A stretch of DNA of 64,000 bases, taken from NCBI GenBank assembly GCA_963727585.1, contig CAVSHH010000003.1:738493-802492 (forward strand), read 5' to 3'. The position numbers and the translations under genes were made by a program. Below, piece by piece: positions 18,168-31,591 of the stretch. This DNA is from an uncultured Chloroflexia bacterium. Its GTDB lineage: Bacteria > Chloroflexota > Limnocylindria > Limnocylindrales > CSP1-4. A model generated the notes under the pieces. It worked only from the letters and a program-made list of their open reading frames with translations. It did no database searches and had not been told where the DNA came from. Each line of letters opens with the position of its first letter. The stretch's first letter is position 1.

Positions 18168-20216
18168 TCAGGCGACCGGGTCGAGCGCCTGCTCGAACTG
18201 GCTCGCGTACAGGTCGTGGTAGAAGCCGTGCCGCGCGAGCAGCTCCTCGTGCGAGCCCTGCTCAACGATCTGGCCCTGGTTCATCACCAGGATGATGTCC
18301 GCCTCGCGGATCGTGGACAGCCGGTGCGCGATGACGAACGACGTCCGGCCCTCCATCAGTCGGTTCATCGCCCGCTGGATGAGCACCTCGGTCCGGGTGT
18401 CCACCGACGAGGTGGCCTCGTCGAGGATCAGGACCGGCGGGTCGGCGAGGAACGCCCGGGCGATGGTCAGCAGCTGCTTCTCGCCGGCCGAGACGTTGGA
18501 CGCCTCGTCGTCGAGCACGGTCTCGTAGCCGTCCGGCAGCGTCTTCACGAAGTGGTCCACGTGGGCCGCCTCGGCCGCCTCGTGGAAGCGCTCCTCGCTG
18601 ACCTCGTCGTCCGTCCCGTAGACCATGTTCTCGCGGATGGTCCCGCTGAACAGCCAGGCATCCTGGAGGACCATGCCGAAGGTGCGCCGCAGGTTGTCGC
18701 GGGTGGCGGCCCGGGTCTCGACCCCGTCGACCGTGATCCGGCCGCCGTCAACGTCGTAGAAGCGCATCAGCAGGTTGACCAGCGTGGTCTTCCCGGCGCC
18801 GGTGGGCCCCACGATGGCCACGGTCTGGCCGGGCTCCACCGACAGCGAGAGGTCCTCGATGAGCGGCTGTTCCGGCAGGTACCGGAACGAGATGTGCTCG
18901 AACGCGACCCGGCCGGCGGCCGGCTCCACGATCTCCTGGGCGGGCACCGGGTCCGGGATCTCCTGCTCCTCGTCGAGCAGCTCGAACACGCGCTCCGCGG
19001 AGGCCACCGCGCTCTGCAGCACGTTGGCGATCGACGCAACCTGGACGATGGGGAAGGTGAACTGGCGGCTGTACTGGATGAACGCCTGCACGTCGCCGAG
19101 GGTCATCTGGCCGGTGGTCACGCGGACGCCGCCGATGACGGCGATGGCCACGTAGTTGAGGTTCGAGATGAACATCATCGCCGGCTGGATCATCCCCGAC
19201 AGGAACTGGGCCCGGTAGCTGGCCTGGTACAGCTCCTGGTTGCGGCGGTCGAACTCCTCGATCGCCTCCTCCTGCCGGCCGAACAGCTTCACGATCGCGT
19301 GCCCCGTGTGCATCTCCTCGATGTGCCCGTTGAGGATGCCGGTCCGCTCCCACTGGGCCGCGAACTGCTTTTGCGAGCGCTTCGCGATCACGACCGCCAC
19401 GAACATCGACGCGGGGACGGCCAGCAGCGAGATGAGCGCCAGGATGGGGCTGATCGTGAGCATCATGATCAGCACGCCGACCACCGTCAGCAGCGAGGTG
19501 ATGAGCTGGGTGAGGCTCTGCTGGAGCGTCTGGCTGATGTTGTCGATGTCGTTGGTGACCCGGGACAGGATGTCGCCCCGGCTCTCGCGGTCGAAGTACG
19601 ACAGGGGCAGCAGGCCGAGCTTGCGGTCGACCCGCTCGCGCAGCCGGTAGACCGTCCGCTGGGTGACGCCGGCCATGATCCAGCTCTGTCCCCACTGGAA
19701 CAGCGAGCTGGCGATGTACACGCCGGCCGCGATCCCGAGGATCTGGGCGAGCCTGCCGAAGTCGATGCCCACGCCGGGCACGACGCCCGGCATCGATGCC
19801 AGCATGTCGGCGAAGTTGTCCTGCCCGGCGGCGCGGAGGCCGGCCACGATCTGGTCGACGCTCATGTTCGCGCTGCCGGGGATCTGGCCCAGCTGCTCGC
19901 CCACCACGCCGGCGAAGATGACGTTGGTCGCCTCGCCCAGGATCTTGGGTCCGATGATCGCGAGGAACACGCTGATCACGGCCAGGACGAACACGACCAG
20001 GACGAGCAGCCGGTCCGGTCCCAGCTCGCGCATGAGGCGGCTGAACGACACCCGGAAGTTGGCGGGCTTGGCGACGGGCATCATCAGCCCCATGTGGGGA
20101 CCGCCGCCGCCCGGACCTCCCCCCGGCCTCGGCCGGCCCGGGGCGGGACCCGTGCCGGAGCCCGAGCCGGGGCCCGCGCCTGGACTCGTGCCGGCGCGAC
20201 CCGTCGGCCCGCTCAT
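18168..20216 (-). CDS. ABC transporter permease/ATP-binding fusion protein (exporter, MdlB-like)
   Basis: 6-TM domain followed by Walker A GPTGAGKTT, signature LSAGEKQLL and Walker B ILDEATS. The start overlaps the upstream ABC gene stop (ATGA). Confidence 0.85.
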   Translation of the reverse strand: MSGPTGRAGTSPGAGPGSGSGTGPAPGRPRPGGGPGGGGPHMGLMMPVAKPANFRVSFSRLMRELGPDRLLVLVVFVLAVISVFLAIIGPKILGEATNVIFAGVVGEQLGQIPGSANMSVDQIVAGLRAAGQDNFADMLASMPGVVPGVGIDFGRLAQILGIAAGVYIASSLFQWGQSWIMAGVTQRTVYRLRERVDRKLGLLPLSYFDRESRGDILSRVTNDIDNISQTLQQSLTQLITSLLTVVGVLIMMLTISPILALISLLAVPASMFVAVVIAKRSQKQFAAQWERTGILNGHIEEMHTGHAIVKLFGRQEEAIEEFDRRNQELYQASYRAQFLSGMIQPAMMFISNLNYVAIAVIGGVRVTTGQMTLGDVQAFIQYSRQFTFPIVQVASIANVLQSAVASAERVFELLDEEQEIPDPVPAQEIVEPAAGRVAFEHISFRYLPEQPLIEDLSLSVEPGQTVAIVGPTGAGKTTLVNLLMRFYDVDGGRITVDGVETRAATRDNLRRTFGMVLQDAWLFSGTIRENMVYGTDDEVSEERFHEAAEAAHVDHFVKTLPDGYETVLDDEASNVSAGEKQLLTIARAFLADPPVLILDEATSSVDTRTEVLIQRAMNRLMEGRTSFVIAHRLSTIREADIILVMNQGQIVEQGSHEELLARHGFYHDLYASQFEQALDPVA

Positions 20217-21940
20217 GCGACCTCCTCCTCGGTGACCTGGGACAGGACGATCTCGCGGTACGTCTCGCAGGTCGCCATCAGCTCGTCGTGGGTCCCGATC
20301 CCGGCGATGCCACCGTCCTCGAGGACCACGATCTGGTCGGCGTGGAGGATGGTGCCCACCCGCTGCGCGACGATCATCACCGTGGCCTGGCCCAGCTCCC
20401 GCGCGATCGCCGCACGGAGACGCGCGTCGGTCCGGAAGTCGAGCGCGCTGAAGCTGTCGTCGAACACGAAGATGTCCGGTTGCCGGGCGAGGGTCCGGGC
20501 GATCGCCAGGCGCTGGCGCTGGCCGCCCGAGACGTTGGTGCCACCCTGGGTGATGGGCGACTCGAGCTGGTCGGCCATCTCGCTCACGAAGTCGTGCCCC
20601 TGCGCGATCTGGAGCACCTGCCACAGGGTGTCGTCGCTGGCGGCCTGGTCGCCGTAGCGCAGGTTGGACCCGACGGTGCCCGAGAACAGGAATGCCTTCT
20701 GGGGCACCATCCCGATCCGCCGCCACAGGTCCTGGCGGTCCATGTCCCTGACGTTCACGCCGTCCACCAGGACCTCGCCGGCGGTGGCGTCGTACAACCG
20801 CGGCAGCAGGTTGATGAGCGTGGACTTGCCCGAGCCGGTGGAGCCGACGATCGCCGTCGTCTCGCCCGGGCGGGCCACGAAGCTGACGTGGCTCAGGACC
20901 GGCTCCTCGGCGCCCGGGTAGCGGAACTCGACGTCGCGGAACTCGACGTGGCCCCGGCGCTCGGGGGAGATCGGCGTGGGCGGATCCCAGATGGTGGGCT
21001 CGGTCTCGAGCACCTCGTTGATCCGGCCCGCGGACACAGCCGCCCGGGGGACCATCACGAACATGATCACCGCGGTCATGATCGCGAACAGGATCTGCAT
21101 GATGTACTGCAGGAAGGCGGCAAGGTTCCCGATCGGCATCTCGCCCGAGTCGACGCGGTAGGCGCCCAGCCACAGGACCGCCACGGTCGACAGGTTCATG
21201 ATCAGCATCAGCGCTGGCATGGTGATCGCGAACAGGCGGTTGACCCGCAGCCCGGTGTCCATGAGGTCGCGCGAGGCGACGTCGAACCGACGCTCCTCGT
21301 GCTCGGTGCGCACGAAGGCGCGGATCACGCGGATCCCGGTCAGCTTCTCGCGCATCACCAGGTTGATCCGGTCGAGCTTCTTCTGCATCGCCTGGAACAG
21401 CGGGATGGCGCGGCTCATCACGACGCCCACCAGGACCGCCATGATCGGGATGATGACGAGCAGGATCCCCGTGAGCGGCACGTCCTGGCGGAGCGCCATG
21501 ATCACGCCGCCGATGGCCAGGATCGGGGCGCTGATCATCATGTTCAGCGCCAGCAGCACGACCTGCTGCAGCTGCTGGACGTCGTTGGTGTTGCGGGTGA
21601 TCAGGCTCGCGGCGCCGAAGTGGTTGACCTCGACCTGGCTGAAGGTCTGGACGGAGCGGAAGATCGCCGAGCGCACGTCGCGGCCGAAGCCCATCGCGAT
21701 CCGGGCGCTGAAGAACACCGAGATGATCGACGCGATCATCAGGGCGATGGTCACCAGCAGCATGAAGCCGCCCGTTTGGATGATGTAGTCGACGTCGCCC
21801 TTGGCGATGCCGTTGTTGATGATGTCCGCGTTGAGCTCGGGCAGGTACAGGTTGGTGATCGCCTGGACCAGGAGCAGCGCCAGGACCAGCACGATCGGCC
21901 ACCGGTACGGCGCGAGGTACCGACGGAGGATGGGGATCAT
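20213..21940 (-). CDS. ABC transporter permease/ATP-binding fusion protein (exporter, MdlA-like)
   Basis: TM domain plus GSTGSGKST, LSGGQRQRL and VFDDSFSALD. Confidence 0.85.
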   Translation of the reverse strand: MIPILRRYLAPYRWPIVLVLALLLVQAITNLYLPELNADIINNGIAKGDVDYIIQTGGFMLLVTIALMIASIISVFFSARIAMGFGRDVRSAIFRSVQTFSQVEVNHFGAASLITRNTNDVQQLQQVVLLALNMMISAPILAIGGVIMALRQDVPLTGILLVIIPIMAVLVGVVMSRAIPLFQAMQKKLDRINLVMREKLTGIRVIRAFVRTEHEERRFDVASRDLMDTGLRVNRLFAITMPALMLIMNLSTVAVLWLGAYRVDSGEMPIGNLAAFLQYIMQILFAIMTAVIMFVMVPRAAVSAGRINEVLETEPTIWDPPTPISPERRGHVEFRDVEFRYPGAEEPVLSHVSFVARPGETTAIVGSTGSGKSTLINLLPRLYDATAGEVLVDGVNVRDMDRQDLWRRIGMVPQKAFLFSGTVGSNLRYGDQAASDDTLWQVLQIAQGHDFVSEMADQLESPITQGGTNVSGGQRQRLAIARTLARQPDIFVFDDSFSALDFRTDARLRAAIARELGQATVMIVAQRVGTILHADQIVVLEDGGIAGIGTHDELMATCETYREIVLSQVTEEEVA

Positions 21941-22458
21941 CGGGACGTCTCCAGGCGTTCGGGAGTGGGGGCGGGGGAGGCTTCATCGTGGGCCGCATGC
22001 AGCTCGTCGTGGAGCCGCTCGCGCACTCGGCGCATTGCCCGCGCGCCGGTGAGATAGGCGGCCAGCTCGTCATCGGTCAGCTCGTCGAGCATCCGGGCCA
22101 GGTGGTCACGCCGTTGGGCGGCCATCCCGTCGATCAGGCGATGGCCCTCGTCGGTGGCCGCGACCCGGATGATCCGGCGGTCAGCCTCGTCGCGCTGCCG
22201 CTCGACGAGCCCGCGCTGCTCCATCCGGTCGACGATGCCGGTCGCGCTGGCCTGGCTGACGTCCATCGCCTCGGCCAGGCCGCGCATCGGGAGCGCGCCG
22301 TCGGCCTCCAGGACAAGCAGCACATTGACGTGGACGAGCGACAGGCGCCCGCCCGGCCAGTGGCGCATCAGCGACATCGCCTTGGCCGGGTTGTGGGTAC
22401 CGATCTCGTCGAGGATCTCGGACAGGAGTGCCGTGCGGTTCTGTGCGTTGCGGTTCAT
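21937..22458 (-). CDS. MarR-family transcriptional regulator
   Basis: wHTH (LPMRGLAEAMDVSQASATGIVDRMEQRGLVER). Overlaps the downstream ABC gene by 4 nt, so this is a MarR-ABC-ABC operon. Confidence 0.8.
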   Translation of the reverse strand: MNRNAQNRTALLSEILDEIGTHNPAKAMSLMRHWPGGRLSLVHVNVLLVLEADGALPMRGLAEAMDVSQASATGIVDRMEQRGLVERQRDEADRRIIRVAATDEGHRLIDGMAAQRRDHLARMLDELTDDELAAYLTGARAMRRVRERLHDELHAAHDEASPAPTPERLETSR

Positions 22459-22602
22459 GTCGTGGCGCTGCGGATCCTGGCCCTTCGCGGCAGGTAGATG
22501 ATCAATGCGGCGTGAAGCATATGCCGGGACGGGGTTCGATGCAACTGCCCGGCCGTGACCCACAGGCGACCCACCGCGGAGACCCGTCGCAGAACCCCTG
22601 AG

Positions 22603-23781
22603 CTACCCGGTGATCCCCTTGCGGAACCGCCACGTCGCGAGCGTCAGCAGGACCACGGCGAAGCCGGCCAGGACCGCGAGGTCTGGCAGCACGGCCTCGA
22701 TCCCGGTGCCGTCGCGGATCGTCTCCTGGAGGCCGAGCAGGGCCCAGGAGTGGGGGACGAACCGGGCGATCGACTGCATGACCGGCGGCATCACCTGGAA
22801 CGGGACCATGCAGCCGCCCAGGGCGGCCAGCGCGAGCCCCGCGAACACGCCCACCGACGAGGCCTGGTCCGGGTTGCGTGCGATGGCGCCCACGAGCAGC
22901 GCGGTCGCGGCCGCCACCAGGCAGAACATCGCGATCAGTGCCCCCGCTGCGAGCGGGTCGCCCCACGAGACGTTGAACGCGACGGCGGTGACGATCACGA
23001 TGTAGGCCGCCTGGAGCAGCGCCACCAGGTACCTGCCCAGCGCCTCGCCGCCGATGATCGTCCAGGTGCCGGTGGGCGTGGCGGTCATCCGCCGTGACAG
23101 CCCCAGCTGCCTGGTCGCGACGAGGCGCCCGGCCGCGGTCATCGAGGTCAGGAAGGTGAACAGGACGAGCTGGGTGGACGCCCCGAAGGTGAACTGCGAG
23201 AAGCCCGCGAACATGCCCGCCTGGCCGACCTGGGTGACGTTGACCGCGATGCCGGGCACGGTGTCGTACTGGTCGATGGCCACCGCCCTCGCCTCGTCCC
23301 ACGACCCGAGGCCCTCGGCCACCGAGACCCGGGCGGCCGTGGTCTCCGCGCCCAGCCGGGCAACGGCGGCATCGATCGGCGCCCGCAGGCCGGTGGTCAG
23401 CGAGTCGATGGTGCCCAGGTACGTCACCTCGACCGCCTGGCCGCTGCCCTGCAGGTCCGCGGCGAACCCTTCGGGGATGACCAGGCCCGCCTCGAGCAGG
23501 CCGCGCTCCACCTGCGAGGTGAGCGTCTCCGGGTCGGCCACGCGGCGGATGTCGAACCGGGTGGCGTCCTGCGCGATGATCGCCACCAGCGCCTCGGCCG
23601 AGGGGTCGCCGGCGGGGGCAACGATGCCCAGCCGGGCCGCGGAGGAGCCGCCAAACTGGATCCCGAGCGCGACGATGATGATCGTCGGCAGGACGAACAC
23701 GAAGAACAGGTCGGCGCGGTCGCGCACCTGGCGCAGGAGGTTGATGCGGCCAAGCTCGAGGGCCTTGCGCAGGCCGCTCAT
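22603..23781 (-). CDS. ABC-2 family transporter permease
   Basis: N-terminal TM, large extracytoplasmic loop and C-terminal 5-TM bundle typical of ABC-2. Confidence 0.75.
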   Translation of the reverse strand: MSGLRKALELGRINLLRQVRDRADLFFVFVLPTIIIVALGIQFGGSSAARLGIVAPAGDPSAEALVAIIAQDATRFDIRRVADPETLTSQVERGLLEAGLVIPEGFAADLQGSGQAVEVTYLGTIDSLTTGLRAPIDAAVARLGAETTAARVSVAEGLGSWDEARAVAIDQYDTVPGIAVNVTQVGQAGMFAGFSQFTFGASTQLVLFTFLTSMTAAGRLVATRQLGLSRRMTATPTGTWTIIGGEALGRYLVALLQAAYIVIVTAVAFNVSWGDPLAAGALIAMFCLVAAATALLVGAIARNPDQASSVGVFAGLALAALGGCMVPFQVMPPVMQSIARFVPHSWALLGLQETIRDGTGIEAVLPDLAVLAGFAVVLLTLATWRFRKGITG

Positions 23782-24959
23782 CGGGCCCGCACCAGGCGCC
23801 GAGCGCGAAGCATGCCGATCCCGCCCGTGACCAGGCCGATCGCCAGCAGCACCGCCGCGGCCGGCAGGCCGTCGGCGAGCGTTCCGCCTCCCTGCATCTC
23901 ACCCAGTCCGCGCATGAACCAGCCGTGCGGTGTGAACAGCGCGACGGTGCCCATGACCTCGGGCGCCTGGGCCGTGGGGGAGAAGCTGCCGCCGAGGATG
24001 GCGAGGGTGATGGCCACCGCCGAGCTGGCCGCCCCGGCCGCCTCGGCGGTCGACGTGAACGAGATGACCAGCAGCGACACCCCGATCGCGGCCACGATGG
24101 CGCCGGCCACCAGCAGCGCCACGCCCACGGGCGAGCCCCATGCCGCGCCGATCAGGAGGGTCGTGGTCGCGACCAGGATCGTCATCGCCACCGCTGCCTG
24201 CACGAACGAGCCCAGTGTCTTGCCGGCCAGCACGGTCCACGGTCGCACCGGCCCGGCCAGGATCCGCCCGAGGGTGCCCTGGCGTCGCTCCTCGAACAGG
24301 CTGACCAGGCCCATCTGGGCCGAGAAGAACAGGAACAGGATCGCCATCGAGGCCGAGAAGTAGGTGGGCAGGGACAGCTGCCGGAGGTCGGCCGCCTCGT
24401 CGACGAGGACGACCGGCCGGGCTGCCGAGGCGGCCGCCCCGGCGACCGTGCCCGCCAGCGCCGGATCGGCCGACGGGCCCGCCAGCTCGGTGGCCGTCGC
24501 GATCGAGAGCTGGACCGCCACGACCCCGTCGCCGAACGCCTGCGCCACCGCCCGCGCGATCTCGGTGGCCAGCCCCGCGTCGCGGGCGCCGAGGACCTCG
24601 AGGGTTGCGGCCTGGCCCGCCTGGATCGCGGCCGTGAACCCGGGCGGGATGATGAACGCGGCGTCTGCCGAACCATCGTCCACGGCCGAGCGGGCGGCCT
24701 CCTCGGTGGGCAGCTCGGCGACGCTGAACCCGTCGCGGTCGGCGAACGATCCCAGAACGTTCACCCGGAACGTCTGCGCGAGCTCGCCGCCGTCCATGTC
24801 GGCGACGACCCAGCTCGCCCCGAACGAGGAGGTGCCGGCCAGCAGCTGGCTGAAGATCACGGCCAGCCCGAGCGGCGCCACGATCGACACCAGGAACGCC
24901 GTCCGATCCCGGAGTCGCTGGCGCAGGTCCTTGGCGGCGATCAGCAGCGCGATGCGCAT
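23778..24959 (-). CDS. ABC-2 family transporter permease
   Basis: Paralogous architecture to the adjacent permease. 4-nt overlap with it. Confidence 0.75.
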   Translation of the reverse strand: MRIALLIAAKDLRQRLRDRTAFLVSIVAPLGLAVIFSQLLAGTSSFGASWVVADMDGGELAQTFRVNVLGSFADRDGFSVAELPTEEAARSAVDDGSADAAFIIPPGFTAAIQAGQAATLEVLGARDAGLATEIARAVAQAFGDGVVAVQLSIATATELAGPSADPALAGTVAGAAASAARPVVLVDEAADLRQLSLPTYFSASMAILFLFFSAQMGLVSLFEERRQGTLGRILAGPVRPWTVLAGKTLGSFVQAAVAMTILVATTTLLIGAAWGSPVGVALLVAGAIVAAIGVSLLVISFTSTAEAAGAASSAVAITLAILGGSFSPTAQAPEVMGTVALFTPHGWFMRGLGEMQGGGTLADGLPAAAVLLAIGLVTGGIGMLRARRLVRAR

Positions 24960-24977
24960 GGACGAACGGTCCGCCGG

Positions 24978-25991
24978 CTACTCGGCGTCGCGCAGCGCGC
25001 GGCCGGTGAGATGGAGGAACACGCTCTCCAGATCGGGCGACACGAGCTCGACGCCGCGAACGTGGGCGCCGGTCGACTCCACCGCCTCGAGCAGCCGCGG
25101 CAGCAGCCGCCCGGCATCGAGCGTGATGACCTCGAGCTCGTCGCCCTTCACCGCGGCGGAGTCGAGACCGGGCAGCCGGCCGGCCGCCTGCGAGGCCGCG
25201 AGCACGTGTCCCGACAGCGCCAGCCGGATGGTCTCGCGCTGGCCGACCAGCGAGATCAGCTCCTTCTGGGACCCCTCGGCACGGATCTCACCGCCGTCGA
25301 TGATCCCCACCCGGTCGCACAGCCGCTCGGCCTCCTCCATGTAGTGGGTCGTGTACAGGATCGCCATGCCGCTGCGCCCCAGCGCGTCGATCGACTCGAG
25401 GATCGCGTTGCGGCTCTGGGGATCCACGCCCACGGTCGGCTCGTCGAGAAGCAGCAGTCGCGGCCCGTGGAGCAGCCCGATCCCGATGTTGAGCCGGCGC
25501 TGCATGCCGCCGCTGAAGTGGTCGGTGCGGTCCTTGGCCCGGTCGGTCAGCCCGATCAGCTCCAGGATCTCGTCCACGCGCGAGCGCAGCGTGGCGCCGC
25601 CGAGGCCGTACAGCCGGCCGAAGAAGACGAGGTTCTCGCGCGCGGTCAGGTCCGGGTAGATCGCCAGCTCCTGGGGCACGTACCCGATCCCGGACTTGGC
25701 GGCCACGGCACCGACGTCGATGGGATTGCCGTCGAGGGTCACCGTCCCGGCATCGCGGCGCAGCAGACCGCAAACCATCGAGATCGTGGTGGTCTTGCCC
25801 GCCCCGTTGGGCCCCAGCAGGCCGTAGGTCTCGCCCTGGTGGATGGTGAACGAGACGCCCCGCACGGCCTCGAGATCGCCGTACCGCTTGCGGAGATCGC
25901 GCACCTCGAGCACGACCGCCGGACCGCCCCGTGCGCCGGTGTGGGGCGCCCCCGGGCGCGCCTCGCTGTCAGCGGGCGTCTCGATCGACAT
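24978..25991 (-). CDS. ABC transporter ATP-binding protein
   Basis: GPNGAGKTT, FSGGMQRRLNI and LLLDEPTVGVD. Confidence 0.85.
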   Translation of the reverse strand: MSIETPADSEARPGAPHTGARGGPAVVLEVRDLRKRYGDLEAVRGVSFTIHQGETYGLLGPNGAGKTTTISMVCGLLRRDAGTVTLDGNPIDVGAVAAKSGIGYVPQELAIYPDLTARENLVFFGRLYGLGGATLRSRVDEILELIGLTDRAKDRTDHFSGGMQRRLNIGIGLLHGPRLLLLDEPTVGVDPQSRNAILESIDALGRSGMAILYTTHYMEEAERLCDRVGIIDGGEIRAEGSQKELISLVGQRETIRLALSGHVLAASQAAGRLPGLDSAAVKGDELEVITLDAGRLLPRLLEAVESTGAHVRGVELVSPDLESVFLHLTGRALRDAE

Positions 25992-26071
25992 CCCTCGTCT
26001 CCCTCACGCGCGTGTCCCCAGACCGGAATGGTGCGTGATCGTGGCCGGCGCCGCAAGGCCGGCCGGCACTC

Positions 26072-26888
26072 TCAGTCGCGCTTGCGGACCTTCCACACCT
26101 CCTCGAGCGGCCACCGGCGCCCCCACTCGTACGGCGCCCATGGGTAGCGGGTCGTCGCGCCTTCGGGGATCTGCGGCTCGAGCAGCTCGAGGATCTCGAA
26201 GCCGGCATTCCTGAACAGCCGGATCCAGGCGCCGTGGGTAGGGTGGAACTCCACGCTGGTGCCACCATCCCACTCGACCCTCGCCGGGGCGAAGAACGGC
26301 CGCGCGAGGCGCTCCTCGAGCGGGTCGTCCTCGCCCGCGTCCCCGGCGGTCGCGAGCAGGGTCAGGTGGTGGTTGGTCAGCACGTGGAGTCGGCCGCCCG
26401 GCCGCAGCAGGCGGGCGGCCTCCGCGACCCACGCGTCCGGATCGGCCCACAGGACCGCACCGTACTCGCTGATCGCGAAATCGAACGACCCGTCCGCCAT
26501 CGGCACTCGCTCGGCGTTGCCGTGGATCAGGGGGAACTCGATCCCGTGCTCGCGCTGGAGCCGGGACGCCGTCTCGAGCTGCTTCGCGGAGTTGTCGACG
26601 CCCACCGGCCGGGCTCCGCGGCGTGCCAACCAGGCCGACACGTACCCGGTGCCGCAGCCGAGCTCGATCGCGTCCAGGCCCTCGAGGTCGTCAGGGAGCA
26701 TCCGGAGCTCCGCCTCCGGGATCCCGTAGATGCCCCACGTCTCCTCGCCGGGCAAGCGGCGCCAGGCGCGCTCGCCGGCTTCGACGTAGTCGGCCGCCTC
26801 GACGTCCCACAGGGCGCGGTTGGCGGCGACATGTCCCGGGAGCTCCTCGTCGTCCCGCGACGACGGCTGATCCGCGGACCCGGTCACG
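26072..26888 (-). CDS. Class I SAM-dependent methyltransferase
   Basis: Motif I ELGCGTGYVSAWLA and the post-I acidic residue VDNS. Probable GTG start overlapping the upstream stop. Confidence 0.7.
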
Positions 26889-27777
26889 GGGTGCCCAGGC
26901 CCAGGTGACGCGCCCGCGCCGCCAGCACCAGGTCCACCGACCGCTCGTCGGCCCGGCCGAATGCGACCTGGAGGTGGCCGACACCCTCGTCGCGCCACGC
27001 GTCGAACGCGCGGGCGATGGTATCGGGGTCCTCGGGCAGGCTCGACCTGCCTTCATCACCGACCGACACGCCGGCCGTCACGAGCATGGTGGCCGGGTCG
27101 CGGCCTTCGGCCTCGCAGCCCCGCACCAGGTCAGCGCGGCGCTGCCGGAAACTCTCGTCCGGGAACCCGAACCAGGCGGCGTTCCAGGCGTCGGCCCAGC
27201 GGGCGGTCAGGCGCATCACGCGCTCGCCCTTGGCGGCGATCAGGATCGGCACCTTGCCGCCCAGGCGGGTGGGTCGGGGCGGCGGCGGGATCAGGAACGC
27301 GTCCTCCACGTGGTGATAGGTGCCCTCGAAGGTCACGTGCTCGCCGCGCAGCAGCGGGATGATGATCTCGAGGGTCTCCTCGAACCGGCTGGCCCGGTGG
27401 TCAAACGGGTAGCCGAAGGCGCGATACTCCGGCTCGTGCCAGCCGGTCCCCAGGCCCAGGATCAGCCGGCCGTTCGAGACCTCGTCGAGGGTGGCGGCCA
27501 TCTTGGCCGTGAGGGCCGGCGGCCGGAAGCCCGTGCCCAGCACGATCGTGCCCAGGGCCACCCGCTCGGTGACCGCGGCGACGGCGGACAGCAGCGTCCA
27601 CGCCTCGTGGATGCCGCCGTCCTCGTCGCCGAAGCCGCGGAAGATGAAGTGGTCGTACAGCCACAGGCTGTCGATGCCGCCGGCCTCCGCCCGCTGGGCC
27701 AGGGTCCGGATCTGTGGCCAGCGGCCAGCCCCGGGGCCGTCCGCCTCCGCCATGGGGAGCACGAGTCCAATCTGCAT
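26884..27777 (-). CDS. LLM-class F420-dependent oxidoreductase (luciferase-like)
   Basis: MQIGLVLP...GIDSLWLYDHF...LGTIVLGTGFRPPALTAKMAATLDEVSNGRLILGLGTGW. Confidence 0.8.
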   Translation of the reverse strand: MQIGLVLPMAEADGPGAGRWPQIRTLAQRAEAGGIDSLWLYDHFIFRGFGDEDGGIHEAWTLLSAVAAVTERVALGTIVLGTGFRPPALTAKMAATLDEVSNGRLILGLGTGWHEPEYRAFGYPFDHRASRFEETLEIIIPLLRGEHVTFEGTYHHVEDAFLIPPPPRPTRLGGKVPILIAAKGERVMRLTARWADAWNAAWFGFPDESFRQRRADLVRGCEAEGRDPATMLVTAGVSVGDEGRSSLPEDPDTIARAFDAWRDEGVGHLQVAFGRADERSVDLVLAARARHLGLGTP

Positions 27778-27834
27778 CGGCCGATGGTAGGCGATCGGGG
27801 AACGGCGGCCCTGCCCGGTTGCGCGGGCGACTGG

Positions 27835-28272
27835 CTACCCGCTCCGTGGCTCCAGGGTCGCCAGCGCCTCGACGATCGCCGCGGCGGCCTCGTCGACGGT
27901 CGCGAGCGGGAGCTCGATGTGGATGTCGGCGGCGCCCACCAGCATTGCGTTGTAGGGCATGTCGGCGGAATCGCCGGTGCCCCGGAAGTCGCCCCGGAAC
28001 AACACGACGGGCTTGCCGCGGCCGTAGGCATAGCCGCACTCCCAGCAGGTGCCCGAGTCCGGGTCCTCGCCGTCCATGATGGCGACCACCCCCTCGGCCC
28101 AGTCGACGCCGCCGCGGTCCTTCTCGAAGATCGATCGCGCCGTGCGCTCCGGCGCGGGGTGCAGGTGGGGGACCCAGACCTCGTGGCCGGCCGCCTCGAG
28201 CCGGTCGGCGAGCGCCTCGTTCCAGTCGCGCTCGGGCCGCGTGAACAGGGGCCCGGCCAGGTAGAGCTTCAT
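27835..28272 (-). CDS. Nucleoside 2-deoxyribosyltransferase-like protein
   Basis: MKLYLAGPLF...CWECGYAYGRGKPVVL. Family hallmark (the YLAGP P-loop-like start plus a catalytic Glu region). Confidence 0.7.
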   Translation of the reverse strand: MKLYLAGPLFTRPERDWNEALADRLEAAGHEVWVPHLHPAPERTARSIFEKDRGGVDWAEGVVAIMDGEDPDSGTCWECGYAYGRGKPVVLFRGDFRGTGDSADMPYNAMLVGAADIHIELPLATVDEAAAAIVEALATLEPRSG

Positions 28273-28283
28273 GGGCGCCTTCG

Positions 28284-29279
28284 CTAGTACATGATCGTGC
28301 GGGTCAGGTGGTGGGGCCAGAACGTGGCGTGGTACGTGCTCCACAGCCGGTAGTCCAGCTGCGGGATCACCAGCCCCTGGTCCGGGGGCCGGCGCCGGTT
28401 GACCGACTCCGTCAGGGCGGCCGTCGCGTACAGGGTGTGGGCGCGGACCTCGATCTCCTCCTCGGAGTCGCGCGGCAGCTCCACGCCCTCGTTGATCCTG
28501 CGCTCCAGCTCCGGGCTGTACTCGAAGATCCGCATCAGCCGCAGGGCGACCGGGACGATGTAGTCGGCGAACGCGCTCATGTCCGCAAGGTCCTCGAGCA
28601 CGAACCGGCCGGTCGACTGGTGCGAGGCGTGGAGCCCCCAGAGCGCGAGCTGGCCGAGCTTGAACAGCCGCACCTCGTGCCCGTGATAGTCGGAGATGTC
28701 GCGGAACCGGGGGAACTCCTCCGGCAGGCGGTCGAGCAGGCCGTCGCCGCCCGCGTACATCCGCGGTGCGCAGGAGCGCACCCAGTTCGCCCAGCGACCT
28801 CCGTACCGGTCGACCAGCACCGCCCCCACGGCATTGAGGATCGCGGTACGTTCCTCGAGCATCGGCAACCGGATGGTGCCGCTGAACACGCGCCCGACAT
28901 CGGACATGGTGGCCTCGGCCATCCAGGCGCCGGTGAGCAGCGGGACCCCCGCATCGCGGGCGTTGAGGATGTTGGCGATCATGCCCTCGCTGTCGGACCA
29001 CAGCCGGCCGTCGCGCTCGGCCTCGTACTTCACCCCGGTCTCGAAGTCGGTGAACGCGAAGTTGAGCGTGTTCACGAACAGCTGGTAGTCGGTCAGAACG
29101 TCTGGATCGTCACCGATCTCGAACGGCGGCACCGCGTGCGGCCAGCCGAACGGCTCGTAGGCGAGCCAGTCCGCGACGCGTTCCACCTCGTCGAGATTGG
29201 TGCGGACGTGGCGCGATGTCTCGACCACCGGCTGGACGGAGGCGAGGACGGGCGTTGACCAGAAGCGGCTCTCGTGCAT
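28284..29279 (-). CDS. Queuosine-salvage family protein (DUF2419/Qng1-like, queuosine-5'-phosphate N-glycosylase/hydrolase family)
   Basis: 331-aa C-terminal portion of a 793-aa ORF. Conserved blocks are FVNTLNFAFTDFETG and GHEVRLFKLGQLALW...DLADMSAFADYIVP. The N-terminal 460 aa of the ORF are low-complexity artefact. Confidence 0.7.
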   Translation of the reverse strand: MHESRFWSTPVLASVQPVVETSRHVRTNLDEVERVADWLAYEPFGWPHAVPPFEIGDDPDVLTDYQLFVNTLNFAFTDFETGVKYEAERDGRLWSDSEGMIANILNARDAGVPLLTGAWMAEATMSDVGRVFSGTIRLPMLEERTAILNAVGAVLVDRYGGRWANWVRSCAPRMYAGGDGLLDRLPEEFPRFRDISDYHGHEVRLFKLGQLALWGLHASHQSTGRFVLEDLADMSAFADYIVPVALRLMRIFEYSPELERRINEGVELPRDSEEEIEVRAHTLYATAALTESVNRRRPPDQGLVIPQLDYRLWSTYHATFWPHHLTRTIMY

Positions 29280-29363
29280 GGCGGGGACCTCGGAGGGACG
29301 ACATTCACGAGCGGGCCGCCCCGCCCCTGAGGATGCCGGACGTGGCAGCATGTCGCGCGCCGG

Positions 29364-30341
29364 TTGCGCGGGCGCTCCCGGCTGGTCGCCGCCCCTGGTG
29401 CCGACCCGGGCACAATGGCGCCCGACGATGCCGCCCCCTGCCGCAGCCCGATGACCGTCGCCTCGACCGCCCGTGCCCTGCCGCGCCCGCGTGTGCTGGC
29501 GGGGATCGCGCTGGCCGTGGTCATGTGGGTCCTGGTCGTGCTCGGCTCCGATCCGACGGTCGACGTCCGGGAGCCGTTCTCGGGCTGGGTCACCGCCCAG
29601 GACGCGCGCTCCTACTACGGCCTCCACCTGGCAGACCTGTACGCCGGGCGGACCGACTGGAACACGATCGGCGCGTACCCGTACTCGCCTGCGTTCGCCC
29701 AGCTGGTGTGGCCGCTCGATCTCCTGCCGTGGCCCGTGTTCGTGGCTGCCTGGACCGCGCTCCTCATCGGCGCGGTGTGGCTGCTGACCGGTCCCGACCT
29801 GTTCCTGGTCGGGCTGCTGGTGGGGGCCATGGAGATCGCAGGCGGCAACATCAGCCTGCTGCTCACCGTGGCGATCGTGTGGGGCTTCCGTTGGCCCGCG
29901 ACGTGGGCGTTCGTCCTGCTGACCAAGATCACGCCCGGCATCGGCCTGCTGTGGTTCCCCCTCCGGCGCGAGTGGCGCCAGCTGGGGATCGCGCTGGGGG
30001 CGACGGCGGCGGTGGTCGGCGTGTCGTTCCTGCTGCTGCCCGGGGCATGGCGCGACTGGATCGACCTGCTCCTCGCGAACACCGGCAAGGGCGGCACCTG
30101 GGCGGCCATCCCGATCCCGCTGCTCGTTCGCGGCCCGGTGGGGGTGGCCCTCCTCGTCTGGGGCGCGCCACGCAACCAGCGCTGGGTGGTGCCGGTCGCC
30201 GCGATGCTGGCGCTGCCGGCCCTGTGGTACGGGTCGCTGTCGATGCTGCTGGGTGTGCTCCCGTTGACGACGCCGGAGGAGCGTCGCCGGGGATGGGCGC
30301 GGTTCCTGGCACTGCTGGGGCGGGGGCGTGCGCCGCGCTGA
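29364..30341 (+). CDS. DUF2029/GT87-family integral membrane glycosyltransferase-like protein
   Basis: Polytopic membrane protein with YPYSPAF and an acidic loop resembling polyprenol-P-sugar dependent GT87 (DUF2029). Start uncertain. Confidence 0.6.
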   Translation: MRGRSRLVAAPGADPGTMAPDDAAPCRSPMTVASTARALPRPRVLAGIALAVVMWVLVVLGSDPTVDVREPFSGWVTAQDARSYYGLHLADLYAGRTDWNTIGAYPYSPAFAQLVWPLDLLPWPVFVAAWTALLIGAVWLLTGPDLFLVGLLVGAMEIAGGNISLLLTVAIVWGFRWPATWAFVLLTKITPGIGLLWFPLRREWRQLGIALGATAAVVGVSFLLLPGAWRDWIDLLLANTGKGGTWAAIPIPLLVRGPVGVALLVWGAPRNQRWVVPVAAMLALPALWYGSLSMLLGVLPLTTPEERRRGWARFLALLGRGRAPR

Positions 30342-30382
30342 TCCAGGAGCCGGCCGGGCCTGCCGCGGGCCCGGGATCGTGC

Positions 30383-31591
30383 CTACGAGCTCGCGATCAC
30401 CGTGGCCAGTGCGTCGGCGAACGGCTCGAGGTTGGCCGCCGTGAAGCCGGCGACGTTGATCCGGCCGCGACCGACGACGTACACGCCATGCTCGCTCCGC
30501 AGCCGGGCCACCTGCTCGGTCGTGAGGCCCAGGAGCGCGAACATGCCGCGCTGGTCCGCGATGGCCGACCAGTCGCCCGGGATCGAGCGTTCCTCGAGCG
30601 CCGCCACCAGCGCCCGCCGGTTGTCGTTGATCCGGTCGCGCATCCCGGCCAGCTCCTGCTCCCATTGGGCGCGCAGCGCCGGGTCGGCAAGGACGGTTCG
30701 CACCACGTCGGCGCCATGGGCGGGCGGGTTGGAGTAGTTGGTCCGGATGGCGAGCTTGACATGGCTCTGGGCGGATGCCGCGTCCTCGGACGACCGGGCG
30801 ACGACGATCAACGCCCCCACCCGCTCGGCGTACAGCGAGAACGTCTTGGAGAACGAGGTCGAGACCAGCAGCTCGGCGCCCGGCCGGACGAGCTCGCGCA
30901 GCCCCGCGGCGTCTTCGGCGAGGCCGTTGCCGAAGCCCTGGTAGGCGAGATCCACGAGCGGCAGCAGACGCCGTTCCTCGATGATGTCACCGACCTGCTT
31001 CCACAGGGCCGGCGACGGATCGACGCCGGTGGGATTGTGGCAGGCGCCGTGGAGCAGCACGATGTCTCCCGGGCTGGCGCCGCGAAGCGCTTGGAGCATC
31101 GCCCCCTCGTCGATCCGCCGGCCCGTGGGATCGGTGTATGGGTAGGTCCGGATCCGGAACCCGGCCGCCTGGAACAGCTGCGGGTGGTTGGGCCACGTGG
31201 GCTCGCTCATCCACAGCGTCTGGCCGGATCCGGTCTGGCGCAGCAGGTCGGCCGCGACCCGGAGACCGCCGGTGCCGCCGGGGGTCTGCGTGGCCAGGGC
31301 GCGGTCCGAGGTCACCGCCTCGTGGCCTGCACCCAGCGCGAGGGATCGGACCAGCTCCCGGTACGCCGCCTCGCCGTCGATGGGCCGGTACAGCTTGGTG
31401 CCCGCCGCGGCGGCCAGCCGGCGCTCGGCCTCCACGACCGTGGGCAGGACGGGAGTCTTGCCGGTCTCGTCCACGAACACGCCGGTGCTGAGGTTGATCT
31501 TGCCTTCGCGCGGATCGGCCTTGTAGGCCTCGGCCAGGCCGAGGATCGGGTCGGGCGGGGCGGGGATGCGGGCGAGCGACGGCAGCGACAC
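30383..31591 (-). CDS. aspC: Aspartate/aromatic aminotransferase (class I)
   Basis: APPDPILGL...GKINLSTGVF...SFSKTFSLYAERVG...NYSNPPAHG. Probable GTG start. The ORF N-terminal extension overlaps ldh and was rejected. Confidence 0.85.
   Translation of the reverse strand: MSLPSLARIPAPPDPILGLAEAYKADPREGKINLSTGVFVDETGKTPVLPTVVEAERRLAAAAGTKLYRPIDGEAAYRELVRSLALGAGHEAVTSDRALATQTPGGTGGLRVAADLLRQTGSGQTLWMSEPTWPNHPQLFQAAGFRIRTYPYTDPTGRRIDEGAMLQALRGASPGDIVLLHGACHNPTGVDPSPALWKQVGDIIEERRLLPLVDLAYQGFGNGLAEDAAGLRELVRPGAELLVSTSFSKTFSLYAERVGALIVVARSSEDAASAQSHVKLAIRTNYSNPPAHGADVVRTVLADPALRAQWEQELAGMRDRINDNRRALVAALEERSIPGDWSAIADQRGMFALLGLTTEQVARLRSEHGVYVVGRGRINVAGFTAANLEPFADALATVIASS

What the first reader, a model, noticed from the sequence alone, without database searches (positions are those of the whole stretch)
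26072..29279. Candidate queuine/queuosine salvage operon: Qng1-like, nucleoside 2-deoxyribosyltransferase-like, F420-dependent LLM oxidoreductase, SAM methyltransferase
Four minus-strand genes are closely packed with gaps of about 11, 57 and -4 nt. The first is a DUF2419/Qng1-family protein; Qng1 releases queuine from queuosine-5'-phosphate. It is followed by an Rcl/NDT-family N-glycosidase-like enzyme, an F420-dependent luciferase-like oxidoreductase and a methyltransferase. This association suggests an undescribed nucleoside/nucleobase salvage or modification route, possibly for 7-deazapurine.
Basis: partly seen in the sequence, partly recalled or inferred. Interest (0 to 1): 0.65.

Follow-up and report, generated by a model that had tools for sequence, protein, structure and literature searches.

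The report
Two gene pairs, not one operon
The four genes are real, but they form two separate pairs: a divergent queuine-salvage-type glycosidase with a nucleoside deoxyribosyltransferase, and an unrelated oxidoreductase-methyltransferase pair, so no new four-step 7-deazapurine pathway is supported.

Summary
All four minus-strand genes, their coordinates, the gaps (11, 57 and -4 nt) and the family assignments are confirmed. The single-pathway reading does not hold.

In one syntenic backbone of a Chloroflexota lineage, gene content is nested. LLM-MT occurs alone, NDT-LLM-MT occurs without Qng1, and Qng1-NDT-LLM occurs without MT. Outside this lineage, none of 78 further Qng1 loci carries an LLM or MT ortholog next to Qng1.

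An invariant TACCAT lies 6-7 nt upstream of the LLM start codon in all 13 loci compared. It looks like the -10 box of a leaderless transcript, which would give LLM-MT its own promoter.

The Qng1-NDT adjacency recurs: 22 of 80 Qng1 loci, in three Qng1 clades plus one extra locus, in several orientations. From the NDT side it is rare (2 of 61 informative loci).

The Qng1 homolog keeps the catalytic core and the 7-deazaguanine contacts. It lacks the residues that hold queuosine's cyclopentenediol side chain, the Asp-Asp proton relay and one phosphate-binding lysine. Its substrate is therefore uncertain.

The NDT-like protein has the complete catalytic residue set of a nucleoside 2'-deoxyribosyltransferase and is not Rcl-like.

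Best reading: a nucleos(t)ide base-salvage pair lying next to an independent F420 reductase-methyltransferase pair. Interest is modest.

The parts
28284..29279 (-). Qng1-family (PF10343/DUF2419) N-glycosidase, a divergent subfamily, 331 aa. A GAGG Shine-Dalgarno-like motif lies about 9 nt upstream of the ATG.
   Evidence: Pfam E=5.5e-46. StQng1 7UK3 E=5e-41. AlphaFold pLDDT 89 and TM 0.84-0.87 to 7UK3. Residue mapping: D239, K207, N73, F76, Y240, D309, W313, E275, H324 and C-terminal Y331 are kept. D69->N70, D207->G215, W48->A49, H53->E54, Y93->S97, W94->E98 and K233->I241 are changed.
27835..28272 (-). Nucleoside 2'-deoxyribosyltransferase-type enzyme (PF05014), 145 aa. It starts 11 nt after the Qng1 stop codon and has a GAAGG Shine-Dalgarno-like motif at 28278-28282. 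It is probably translated from the same mRNA as Qng1.
   Evidence: Pfam E=8e-25. CtNDT E=1e-9. AlphaFold pLDDT 83; Foldseek top hits are DpNDT 7O62 (TM 0.74-0.78), CtNDT and BpNDT. The CtNDT catalytic residues Y7/D62/D82/E88/D111/N118/M120 correspond to Y4/D52/D72/E78/D101/N108/M110. All are invariant among close homologs (A4). N108 alone is not kept in the Nanopelagicales-type copies (A2). CtNDT residues.
27784..27789 (-). TACCAT hexamer 6 nt upstream of the LLM ATG. Candidate -10 box of a leaderless LLM-MT transcript.
   Evidence: Invariant in all 13 homologous loci while the rest of the intergenic region diverges. The spacing is 6 or 7 nt, so the conservation is not due to coding. It is also present in L167-169, where no co-directional gene lies upstream. 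No Shine-Dalgarno motif precedes the LLM start.
26884..27777 (-). Luciferase-like (LLM) oxidoreductase, predicted F420-dependent (TIGR03619, Rv2161c family), 297 aa.
   Evidence: PF00296 E=6.5e-57. TIGR03619 172.2 bits against a cut-off of 166.9. Orthologs at 66% identity or more occur with and without Qng1/NDT upstream.
26072..26887 (-). Class I SAM-dependent methyltransferase, 271 aa. Its GTG start overlaps the LLM stop codon by 4 nt (GTGA), which suggests translational coupling to LLM.
   Evidence: Methyltransf_11 E=5.7e-22. The 4-nt overlap with LLM is also seen in L164, L165, L166 and L171, and a 1-nt gap in L167-170. The gene is absent in L002 and L094.
29364..30341 (+). Divergent neighbour: GT87-family membrane glycosyltransferase. 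It belongs to the syntenic backbone, not to the feature itself.
   Evidence: PF09594 E=2e-8. It holds the same position in L002, L097, L164-170.
22603..25991 (-). Downstream neighbours on the same strand: an ABC ATPase (24978..25991) and two ABC-2 permeases (23778..24959, 22603..23781). They are part of the syntenic backbone and may be associated with LLM-MT.
   Evidence: Pfam. They follow LLM or MT in every related locus.

Best explanation
The region holds two independent units that lie next to each other in one Chloroflexota (Limnocylindrales-like) lineage.

Unit 1 is a Qng1-NDT bicistron, a pair of N-glycosidic-bond enzymes for salvaging bases from scavenged or recycled nucleos(t)ides.
- The Qng1-like enzyme uses the HhH Asp/Lys and C-terminal carboxylate machinery (shown by sequence) to release a guanine-shaped, probably 7-deazaguanine-type base from a nucleotide or nucleoside (inferred).
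- Whether that base is queuine or another 7-substituted base is open, because the side-chain pocket is remodelled.
- The NDT-type enzyme forms a covalent (deoxy)ribosyl-Glu78 intermediate. It exchanges or releases bases at the nucleoside level (inferred from the complete catalytic residue set).

Unit 2 is LLM-MT, transcribed from its own leaderless promoter (inferred from the TACCAT element).
- It encodes an F420H2-dependent reductase translationally coupled to a SAM methyltransferase.
- It acts on an unidentified substrate unrelated to queuosine.
- By analogy with Rv2951c/Rv2952, it may reduce a keto group and then O-methylate the product. The substrate could be a lipid or metabolite, and the product may be handled by the adjacent ABC-2 exporter (speculative).
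For: Nested presence and absence in one syntenic backbone (AAT, GT87, [Qng1], [NDT], LLM, [MT], ABC):
- Four genes in the window, L001, L084, L097 and L171.
- Qng1-NDT-LLM without MT in L094.
- Qng1-NDT, an opposite-strand protease, then LLM in L002.
- NDT-LLM-MT without Qng1 in L164-166 and L170.
- LLM-MT alone in L167-169.

Outside the window's clade, none of the other 78 genome loci of this Qng1 subfamily has an LLM or MT ortholog nearby. Only 32-40% identical LLM paralogs occur, in 8 loci (7 genome loci and L083), at variable distance and strand.

Promoter and translation signals:
- Invariant TACCAT plus 6-7 nt plus ATG before LLM in 13 of 13 loci.
- A 4-nt LLM/MT overlap is conserved.
- Qng1 and NDT both have Shine-Dalgarno-like motifs and sit 10-16 nt apart throughout the clade.

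NDT adjacency to Qng1:
- 21 of 80 loci by HMM, plus L078 by tblastn.
- Three separate clades of the Qng1 tree, in three arrangements: co-directional, convergent and divergent.
- Also L083, with a 223-aa NDT.

The usual neighbours of this Qng1 subfamily are nucleoside-uptake and nucleoside-catabolism genes. Loci out of 80: BPD_transp_2 permeases 33, ribokinase-like PfkB 28, MFS 28, double ABC ATPase 28, IU_nuc_hydro 26, PNP_UDP_1 24, Bmp/PnrA 21.

Active sites are documented (Qng1; NDT).

A precedent for an F420H2 LLM ketoreductase working with a methyltransferase is Rv2951c/Rv2952.
Against: - All genomes that carry both pairs are close relatives, so read-through co-transcription of the four genes cannot be excluded.
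- No terminator consensus was found, and the NDT-LLM intergenic hairpins fold no better than shuffled sequence.
- The TACCAT element is a promoter only by inference. Leaderless transcription has not been shown in this lineage.
- Most Qng1 loci (58 of 80) have no NDT nearby, and most NDT homologs have no Qng1 (2 of 61 informative loci). The Qng1-NDT link is therefore facultative.
- No tgt gene, queuosine transporter or preQ1 riboswitch was found in the window or any locus.
- The substrates of all four enzymes are untested.
Confidence: 0.68

Rival explanations
1. All four genes form one operon encoding a single undescribed salvage or modification route for queuine or another 7-deazapurine. Qng1 and NDT release or transfer the base, and LLM and MT then reduce and methylate it.
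For: Same strand and tight spacing of 11, 57 and -4 nt. The four-gene order is retained in five related genomes: the window, L001, L084, L097 and L171. No terminator was detected between NDT and LLM.
Against: LLM-MT occurs at the same locus without Qng1 (L164-166, L170) and without Qng1 and NDT (L167-169). Qng1-NDT occurs without MT (L002, L094). In L002 an opposite-strand gene separates NDT from LLM. None of the 78 more distant Qng1 loci has LLM or MT orthologs. None of the 37 informative NDT loci below 65% identity has LLM. A conserved promoter-like TACCAT precedes LLM. The one apparent NDT-LLM fusion (P0255/L164) is a frameshift read-through of a disrupted NDT gene.
Confidence: 0.06
2. There is no functional coupling at all. 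Qng1-like and NDT-like are two independent nucleoside-salvage enzymes that happen to be neighbours, and LLM and MT are likewise unrelated neighbours of both.
For: 58 of 80 Qng1 loci lack NDT. Only 2 of 61 informative NDT loci have Qng1. NDT sits in unrelated contexts in L172 (with peptidase M20) and L174 (with PfkB). In sister genomes NDT is present at the same position without Qng1.
Against: The adjacency recurs in three separate Qng1 clades plus L083, with different NDT subtypes and orientations, and is kept across the whole Nanopelagicales clade despite an inversion. Spacing is 0-20 nt in most cases. Both enzymes cleave N-glycosidic bonds, and both families are separately found next to ribokinase-like PfkB genes.
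Confidence: 0.2
3. The functional unit is NDT-LLM-MT, with a nucleoside or base processed by all three enzymes. Qng1 is a later insertion upstream of this trio.
For: NDT-LLM-MT occurs without Qng1 in L164-166 and L170. The gene caller reported one NDT-LLM fusion protein, P0255.
Against: L167-169 have LLM-MT without NDT. NDT homologs outside the lineage have no LLM: 0 of 37 informative loci below 65% identity, and L172 and L174. The fusion is an artefact or pseudogene: it has a TAG at codon 4 of NDT and a frameshift over the stop codon. LLM has its own TACCAT element.
Confidence: 0.06

Closest known systems
Qng1/QNG1 (DUF2419, PF10343): queuosine-5'-monophosphate N-glycosylase of Sphaerobacter thermophilus and human (PMC9881137)
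   Same: Same fold (TM 0.84-0.87, 30% identity). Same HhH catalytic Asp and Lys (D239, K207), general-acid Asn (N73) and ribose-stacking F76/Y240. Same C-terminal Tyr carboxylate with its partners E275 and H324. Same 7-deazaguanine ring contacts (D309, W313, L211).
   Different: The D69/D207 members of the proton relay, which starts at queuosine's secondary amine, are N70/G215 and vary across the subfamily. The aromatic cyclopentenediol pocket W48/H53/Y93/W94 is A49/E54/S97/E98. The phosphate ligand K233 is an invariant Ile. Q306 is Ser here, and Lys in most of the subfamily. No tgt gene is nearby. The subfamily usually sits in general nucleoside uptake and catabolism clusters.
Bacterial type II nucleoside 2'-deoxyribosyltransferases (CtNDT of Chroococcidiopsis thermalis, DpNDT of Desulfotalea psychrophila, BpNDT)
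   Same: PF05014 domain and flavodoxin-like fold. Complete catalytic set: Y4, D52, D72, nucleophile E78, leaving-group acid D101, N108 and M110.
   Different: Only 25-30% identity. S10 of CtNDT is Gly here. Activity, sugar preference (deoxyribose or ribose) and base range are untested. The genomic pairing with a Qng1 homolog is not described in the papers I could search.
   Same: Same superfamily and fold. DNPH1 structures are retrieved at Foldseek E of about 1e-4.
   Different: Not retrieved by sequence at E<=0.01. It ranks well below the NDTs structurally. The N-terminal motif is YLAGPLF, as in NDTs. From my own memory, and not tested here, Rcl has a GSIRGG phosphate loop at that position.
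Rv2951c/Rv2952 of Mycobacterium tuberculosis: an F420H2-dependent LLM phthiodiolone ketoreductase plus a methyltransferase
   Same: Adjacent F420-type LLM reductase and class I SAM methyltransferase acting in sequence, first reducing and then methylating. It is a plausible working model for LLM-MT.
   Different: No orthology is shown. The MT matches the phthiotriol methyltransferase model at only 41 bits against a cut-off of 300. The LLM falls in the Rv2161c family (TIGR03619). The substrate here is unknown.
Published Qng1/QueK/TGT neighbourhood survey for queuosine-precursor transporters (PMC11130926)
   Same: That survey already reports PnrA-like ABC binding proteins (PF02608) and MFS transporters clustering with Qng1. 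I see the same in 21 and 28 of 80 loci.
   Different: Its held supplementary files do not mention PF05014. PfkB appears there only as an entry in the neighbourhood tables for two UPS candidates. It treats the whole InterPro family as Qng1, without noting the subfamily's altered pocket.

Membership tests
Qng1/QNG1 queuosine-5'-monophosphate N-glycosylase | PF10343 domain and HhH glycosylase-like fold | tested here: met
   Pfam 157.8 bits against a cut-off of 25. 7UK3 E=5e-41. TM 0.84/0.87.
Qng1/QNG1 queuosine-5'-monophosphate N-glycosylase | Catalytic HhH Asp (D231) and Lys (K199), Asn general acid (N72), and the C-terminal Tyr carboxylate (Y323) with E267 and H316 | tested here: met
   D239, K207, N73, Y331 (the last residue), E275 and H324. 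All are invariant in 25 subfamily members.
Qng1/QNG1 queuosine-5'-monophosphate N-glycosylase | 7-deazaguanine ring recognition (D298, W302, aliphatic I203) | tested here: met
   D309, W313 and L211, all invariant.
Qng1/QNG1 queuosine-5'-monophosphate N-glycosylase | Strictly conserved H-bond relay D69-N72-D207 that carries a proton from queuosine's secondary amine | tested here: not met
   D69 is N70 (N/S/A/G in the subfamily). D207 is G215 (S/G/T/Q in the subfamily). Only N72 is kept.
Qng1/QNG1 queuosine-5'-monophosphate N-glycosylase | Aromatic specificity pocket for the cyclopentenediol side chain (P46, W48, H53, Y93, W94, W299) | tested here: not met
   P47 is kept and W299 is Y310. W48 is A49, H53 is E54, Y93 is S97 and W94 is E98. 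The same pattern holds across the subfamily.
Qng1/QNG1 queuosine-5'-monophosphate N-glycosylase | 5'-phosphate contacts R80, K233, Q306 and Y232 | tested here: inconclusive
   R80 is K84 (invariant) and Y232 is Y240. K233 is I241 (invariant Ile). Q306 is S314, and Lys in 16 of 25 members, which could compensate.
Qng1/QNG1 queuosine-5'-monophosphate N-glycosylase | Hydrolyses Q-5'MP to queuine, in an organism that has a queuine-using TGT | not testable with these tools
   No enzyme assay is possible. No TGT motif was found in the 64-kb window or in any fetched locus.
Nucleoside 2'-deoxyribosyltransferase (PF05014) | Pfam domain above threshold and NDT fold | tested here: met
   87.7 bits against a cut-off of 28.8. 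Foldseek top hits are DpNDT, CtNDT and BpNDT at TM 0.65-0.78.
Nucleoside 2'-deoxyribosyltransferase (PF05014) | Glu nucleophile with its Tyr and Asp partners and the leaving-group Asp (CtNDT Y7, D62, D82, E88, D111, N118, M120) | tested here: met
   Y4, D52, D72, E78, D101, N108 and M110. All are invariant in A4. In A2, N108 alone is nearly invariant, because it is lost in the Nanopelagicales-type NDTs.
Nucleoside 2'-deoxyribosyltransferase (PF05014) | Transglycosylation between (deoxy)nucleoside and free base | not testable with these tools
   This needs an enzyme assay.
Rcl/DNPH1 dNMP N-hydrolase | Closer to DNPH1 than to the NDTs, with a phosphate-binding loop | tested here: not met
   No DNPH1 or Rcl chain at E<=0.01 by sequence. 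Foldseek E is about 1e-4 against 3e-8 for the NDTs. The N-terminal motif is NDT-like.
F420-dependent LLM oxidoreductase (TIGR03619, Rv2161c family) | Score above the curated cut-off | tested here: met
   172.2 bits against 166.9. Actual cofactor use is not testable here.
Single four-gene operon or pathway | Co-directional genes with short or overlapping junctions | tested here: met
   Gaps of 11, 57 and -4 nt.
Single four-gene operon or pathway | The genes co-occur beyond close relatives and are gained or lost together | tested here: not met
   Nested, independent presence and absence. None of 78 distant Qng1 loci has LLM or MT orthologs.
Single four-gene operon or pathway | No internal promoter | tested here: inconclusive
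   A conserved TACCAT -10-like element lies 6-7 nt before the LLM ATG in 13 of 13 loci. This argues for an internal promoter, but there are no transcript data and no terminator was found.

The most novel reading that the evidence does not exclude
The window's Qng1 homolog represents a widespread, uncharacterised subfamily found in Chloroflexota, Acidimicrobiia and Nanopelagicales. Its enlarged, acidic 7-substituent pocket and lost Asp-Asp relay would give it a substrate other than Q-5'MP. Candidates are a preQ1- or preQ0-type nucleotide or another modified guanine nucleotide. In some lineages it would work together with an NDT-type transferase, and in others with a ribokinase-like PfkB kinase. 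That would make a previously undescribed base-salvage module for scavenged modified nucleosides.
Probability: 0.2. Interest if true: 0.6.

Novelty: new variant of a known kind. Interest (0 to 1): 0.33.

Why it matters
If the four-gene pathway had been real, it would have been a new 7-deazapurine modification route. The evidence says it is not, so that lead can be dropped.

Three smaller leads remain:
- A large environmental subfamily of 'queuosine salvage' proteins lacks the residues that define queuosine recognition. Automatic annotation as Qng1, and genome-based predictions of queuine salvage in Chloroflexota, Acidimicrobiia and freshwater acI Actinobacteria, may therefore be wrong or incomplete.
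- These proteins recurrently pair with an NDT-type enzyme and with ribokinase-like kinases. This offers testable candidates for the missing steps around Qng1, including the unidentified kinase that makes the 5'-monophosphate.
- The conserved TACCAT-N6-7-ATG element is a clean candidate for leaderless transcription in this Chloroflexota lineage.

Tried and rejected
- Rfam scan of the whole window for a preQ1, purine or other riboswitch: no hit at gathering score.
- Sigma-70 promoter and intrinsic terminator consensus scans of 21500-30500: none found.
- Folding of the NDT-LLM intergenic regions of four loci: only L170 beats its shuffles, marginally (z = -2.0). The other three, including the window, give z of -0.70 to +0.45. 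There is no consistent terminator evidence.
- Motif search for TGT and other queuosine-biosynthesis genes in the window and in about 170 fetched loci: nothing credible.
- The NDT-LLM 'fusion' protein P0255 looked like Rosetta-stone evidence. The DNA shows a TAG at NDT codon 4 and a frameshift over the NDT stop codon, so it is an assembly error or a pseudogene.
- The methyltransferase near Qng1 in L083 shares only the generic SAM motif with the window's MT (32% over 111 aa), so it is not an ortholog.
- LLM hits near Qng1 in 8 loci (7 genome loci and L083) are 32-40% identical paralogs at variable distance and strand.
- No strongly conserved neighbour of NDT emerged from 80 metagenome loci. The commonest candidate was a possible GNAT-like ORF in 24 loci, identified by eye and not scanned.
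- Zallot et al. 2014, the original DUF2419 paper, is not held in the library, so I could not check whether it mentions NDT neighbours.

Full report
**1. What is in the sequence**

The window is about 72% G+C. Its closest relatives are uncultured Chloroflexota; related NDT and LLM homologs are labelled Candidatus Limnocylindrales.

| Gene | Coordinates | Length | Junction to next gene |
|---|---|---|---|
| Qng1-like | 28284..29279 | 331 aa | 11-nt gap |
| NDT-like | 27835..28272 | 145 aa | 57-nt gap |
| LLM | 26884..27777 | 297 aa | 4-nt overlap (GTGA) |
| MT | 26072..26887 | 271 aa, GTG start | n/a |

All four family assignments pass:
- Qng1-like: PF10343, E=5.5e-46.
- NDT-like: PF05014, E=8e-25.
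- LLM: PF00296, E=6.5e-57, and TIGR03619 (F420-dependent LLM, Rv2161c family) at 172.2 bits against a cut-off of 166.9.
- MT: Methyltransf_11, E=5.7e-22.

**2. Is it one conserved unit? The view from Qng1**

I fetched 80 genome loci, from 80 species-level genomes, that encode this Qng1 subfamily. I searched them with the window's neighbouring proteins.
- LLM and MT follow Qng1 only in L001 (Qng1 86% identical).
- LLM alone follows in L002 (81% identical).
- In L002 an opposite-strand, secreted protease-like gene lies between NDT and LLM, and MT is absent, so LLM is followed directly by the ABC ATPase.
- None of the other 78 loci has an ortholog of either gene. There are only 32-40% identical LLM paralogs, in 8 loci (7 of these genome loci and L083), at variable distance and strand. 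This is expected for a very large family.

**3. The view from LLM and from NDT**

Orthologs of LLM at 66% identity or more are numerous. Annotated contigs show the same chromosomal backbone each time: aminotransferase, GT87 membrane protein, then a variable part, then ABC ATPase, two ABC-2 permeases, MarR and ABC exporters. The variable part is nested:

| Content of the variable part | Loci |
|---|---|
| Qng1-NDT-LLM-MT | window, L001, L084, L097, L171 |
| Qng1-NDT-LLM, no MT | L094 |
| Qng1-NDT, protease (-), LLM | L002 |
| NDT-LLM-MT, no Qng1 | L164, L165, L166, L170 |
| LLM-MT only | L167-169 |

LLM-MT therefore needs neither Qng1 nor NDT. Qng1-NDT does not need MT. The four genes are not gained and lost together.

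Among 80 metagenome loci found with an NDT alignment:
- Qng1 is present in 2 of the 61 loci with at least 600 nt upstream.
- LLM is present in 3 of the 43 loci with at least 600 nt downstream.
- All of these have NDT at 65% identity or more, so they belong to the window's own clade.

Close NDT homologs elsewhere sit in unrelated contexts: L172 with a peptidase, and L174 with a divergent PfkB gene.

The one apparent NDT-LLM fusion protein (P0255) is not real evidence. Its DNA has a TAG at NDT codon 4. A frameshift over the NDT stop codon lets translation read through the intergenic region.

**4. Signals in the junctions**

I aligned the 70 nt upstream of LLM from 13 loci. A TACCAT hexamer is invariant, lying 6 or 7 nt before the ATG, while everything around it diverges.
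- The variable spacing rules out coding conservation.
- There is no Shine-Dalgarno motif.
- The element is also present in L167-169, where the upstream gene is divergent.

The simplest reading is a TANNNT -10 box driving a leaderless LLM-MT mRNA. This is an inference from established knowledge of leaderless promoters in high-G+C bacteria and is not shown for this lineage.

The LLM/MT 4-nt overlap recurs in L164-166 and L171, which suggests translational coupling.

Qng1 and NDT, in contrast, each have a GAGG- or GAAGG-type Shine-Dalgarno motif, and they sit 10-16 nt apart throughout the clade.

No terminator was found between NDT and LLM. Read-through therefore remains possible.

**5. The Qng1-NDT link**

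An HMM built from the NDT homologs found an NDT gene directly next to Qng1 in 21 of 80 loci. L078, which is cut at the contig end, makes 22.

On a neighbour-joining tree of the Qng1 proteins, these loci fall in three clades:
- The window's clade.
- The single Chloroflexota locus L008, where NDT is divergent and about 600 nt upstream.
- Essentially the whole Nanopelagicales/acI clade. One sub-clade has NDT co-directional with a gap of a few nt, and the other has it convergent and overlapping.

L083 adds a fourth case, with a 223-aa NDT 329 nt downstream of Qng1 and a divergent PfkB gene.

The Nanopelagicales NDTs are only 37-39% identical to the window's, but they keep the catalytic residues other than N108.

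Recurrence across clades, subtypes and orientations argues for a real but facultative association. About 45 Acidimicrobiia loci and several Chloroflexota loci have Qng1 without NDT.

I found no mention of this pairing in the searchable literature or in the supplements of the published Qng1 neighbourhood survey.

**6. What the Qng1 homolog is**

The AlphaFold model (pLDDT 89) superposes on StQng1 with TM 0.84-0.87 at 30% identity.

I mapped the residues described in the StQng1 structure paper (PMC9881137) through a pairwise HMMER alignment and a 26-sequence MAFFT alignment.

| Role in StQng1 | StQng1 residues | Window protein | State |
|---|---|---|---|
| Catalytic Asp, HhH Lys, general-acid Asn | D231, K199, N72 | D239, K207, N73 | kept, invariant |
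| Ribose stacking | F75, Y232 | F76, Y240 | kept |
| C-terminal Tyr and partners | Y323, E267, H316 | Y331, E275, H324 | kept |
| 7-deazaguanine contacts | D298, W302, I203 | D309, W313, L211 | kept |
| Proton relay from the queuosine amine | D69, D207 | N70, G215 | lost, variable in the subfamily |
| Cyclopentenediol pocket | W48, H53, Y93, W94 | A49, E54, S97, E98 | lost |
| 5'-phosphate contacts | K233, Q306, R80 | I241 (invariant Ile), S314 (Lys in 16 of 25), K84 | partly lost |

The protein is a member of the Pfam family with an intact glycosidase core. It fails two features that the authors describe as strictly or highly conserved and that account for queuosine specificity. Its substrate may still be a queuosine nucleotide bound differently, or it may be another guanine-shaped base.

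The subfamily's usual neighbours are general nucleoside uptake and catabolism genes:

| Neighbour | Loci out of 80 |
|---|---|
| BPD_transp_2 permeases | 33 |
| Ribokinase-like PfkB (256-270 bits against a cut-off of 299.65) | 28 |
| MFS_1 transporter | 28 |
| Double ABC ATPase | 28 |
| IU_nuc_hydro | 26 |
| PNP_UDP_1 | 24 |
| Bmp/PnrA binding protein | 21 |

No tgt gene and no preQ1 riboswitch was seen anywhere.

**7. What the NDT-like protein is**

By sequence, only bacterial and protozoan NDTs are retrieved from the PDB. By structure (pLDDT 83), the top hits are DpNDT, CtNDT and BpNDT. DNPH1/Rcl comes four orders of magnitude weaker.

The CtNDT catalytic residues are Y7, D62, D82, nucleophile E88, leaving-group acid D111, N118 and M120. 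They align with Y4, D52, D72, E78, D101, N108 and M110. All are invariant among the close homologs, and N108 alone is lost in the Nanopelagicales-type copies.

It is therefore best described as a nucleoside (2'-deoxy)ribosyltransferase acting on nucleosides through a covalent glycosyl-Glu intermediate. It is not an Rcl-type nucleotide hydrolase.

**8. LLM-MT**

Nothing ties this pair to nucleosides. It is a conserved, apparently translationally coupled pair that is always followed by an ABC-2 exporter cluster.

The only mechanistic precedent I can offer is the mycobacterial pair Rv2951c/Rv2952. There an F420H2-dependent LLM ketoreductase acts first and a methyltransferase then methylates the product. 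That is an analogy, not orthology: the MT scores 41 bits against a cut-off of 300 on that model.

**9. Verdict**

The DUF2419-NDT association is real and recurrent, though facultative. It involves a Qng1 subfamily whose queuosine specificity is doubtful.

Including the F420 oxidoreductase and the methyltransferase in a 7-deazapurine route is contradicted by three lines of evidence:
- Their independent presence and absence.
- Their absence from all distant Qng1 and NDT loci.
- The internal promoter-like element before LLM.

The region is best described as two adjacent two-gene units in a syntenic block.

Noticed in passing
window 27784-27789 (minus strand); same element in L001, L002, L084, L094, L097, L164-170: An invariant TACCAT lies 6-7 nt upstream of the LLM start codon, with no Shine-Dalgarno motif. 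It is a candidate -10 box of a leaderless mRNA in a Chloroflexota lineage.
   Followed up: partly
L003:5839-6849 (-), L083:6947-7831 (-), L174:4973-5851 (-), and 28 of 80 Qng1 loci: A ribokinase-like PfkB kinase (256-270 bits, just below the TIGR02152 cut-off of 299.65) sits divergently next to Qng1 homologs. In a few loci it sits next to NDT homologs. It could be a plain ribokinase, or a candidate for the unidentified kinase that makes the 5'-monophosphate substrate of Qng1.
   Followed up: partly
L164:7001-8362: The gene caller reports a 453-aa NDT-LLM fusion (P0255). The DNA shows a premature TAG at NDT codon 4 and a frameshift over the NDT stop codon, so this is an assembly error or a pseudogene.
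   Followed up: yes
L002:9512-10615 (-): A secreted, trypsin-like protease-type ORF lies on the opposite strand between NDT and LLM in one close relative. It breaks the four-gene arrangement. It was identified by eye and not scanned against Pfam.
   Followed up: no
window 18168-25991 (minus strand): Downstream of MT lie an ABC ATPase, two ABC-2 permeases, a MarR regulator and ABC exporter gene(s). The 18168..22073 ORF shows an ABC exporter sequence by eye, and the homologous loci carry PF00664+PF00005 genes there. The block is conserved in order in all related loci and may be functionally tied to LLM-MT.
   Followed up: partly
L007, L013, L058, L060 (record titles): MAGs labelled Bifidobacterium breve or Clavibacter carry Qng1 loci that cluster inside the freshwater Nanopelagicales/Planktophila clade. 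The taxonomic labels are probably wrong.
   Followed up: no
L042:6598-7377 (-) and 11 other Acidimicrobiia loci: A Cu-oxidase_4 (YfiH/PgeF-type 'laccase domain') gene lies directly upstream of Qng1 in 12 loci. From memory, members of that family act on purine nucleosides. This is another nucleoside-metabolism neighbour.
   Followed up: no
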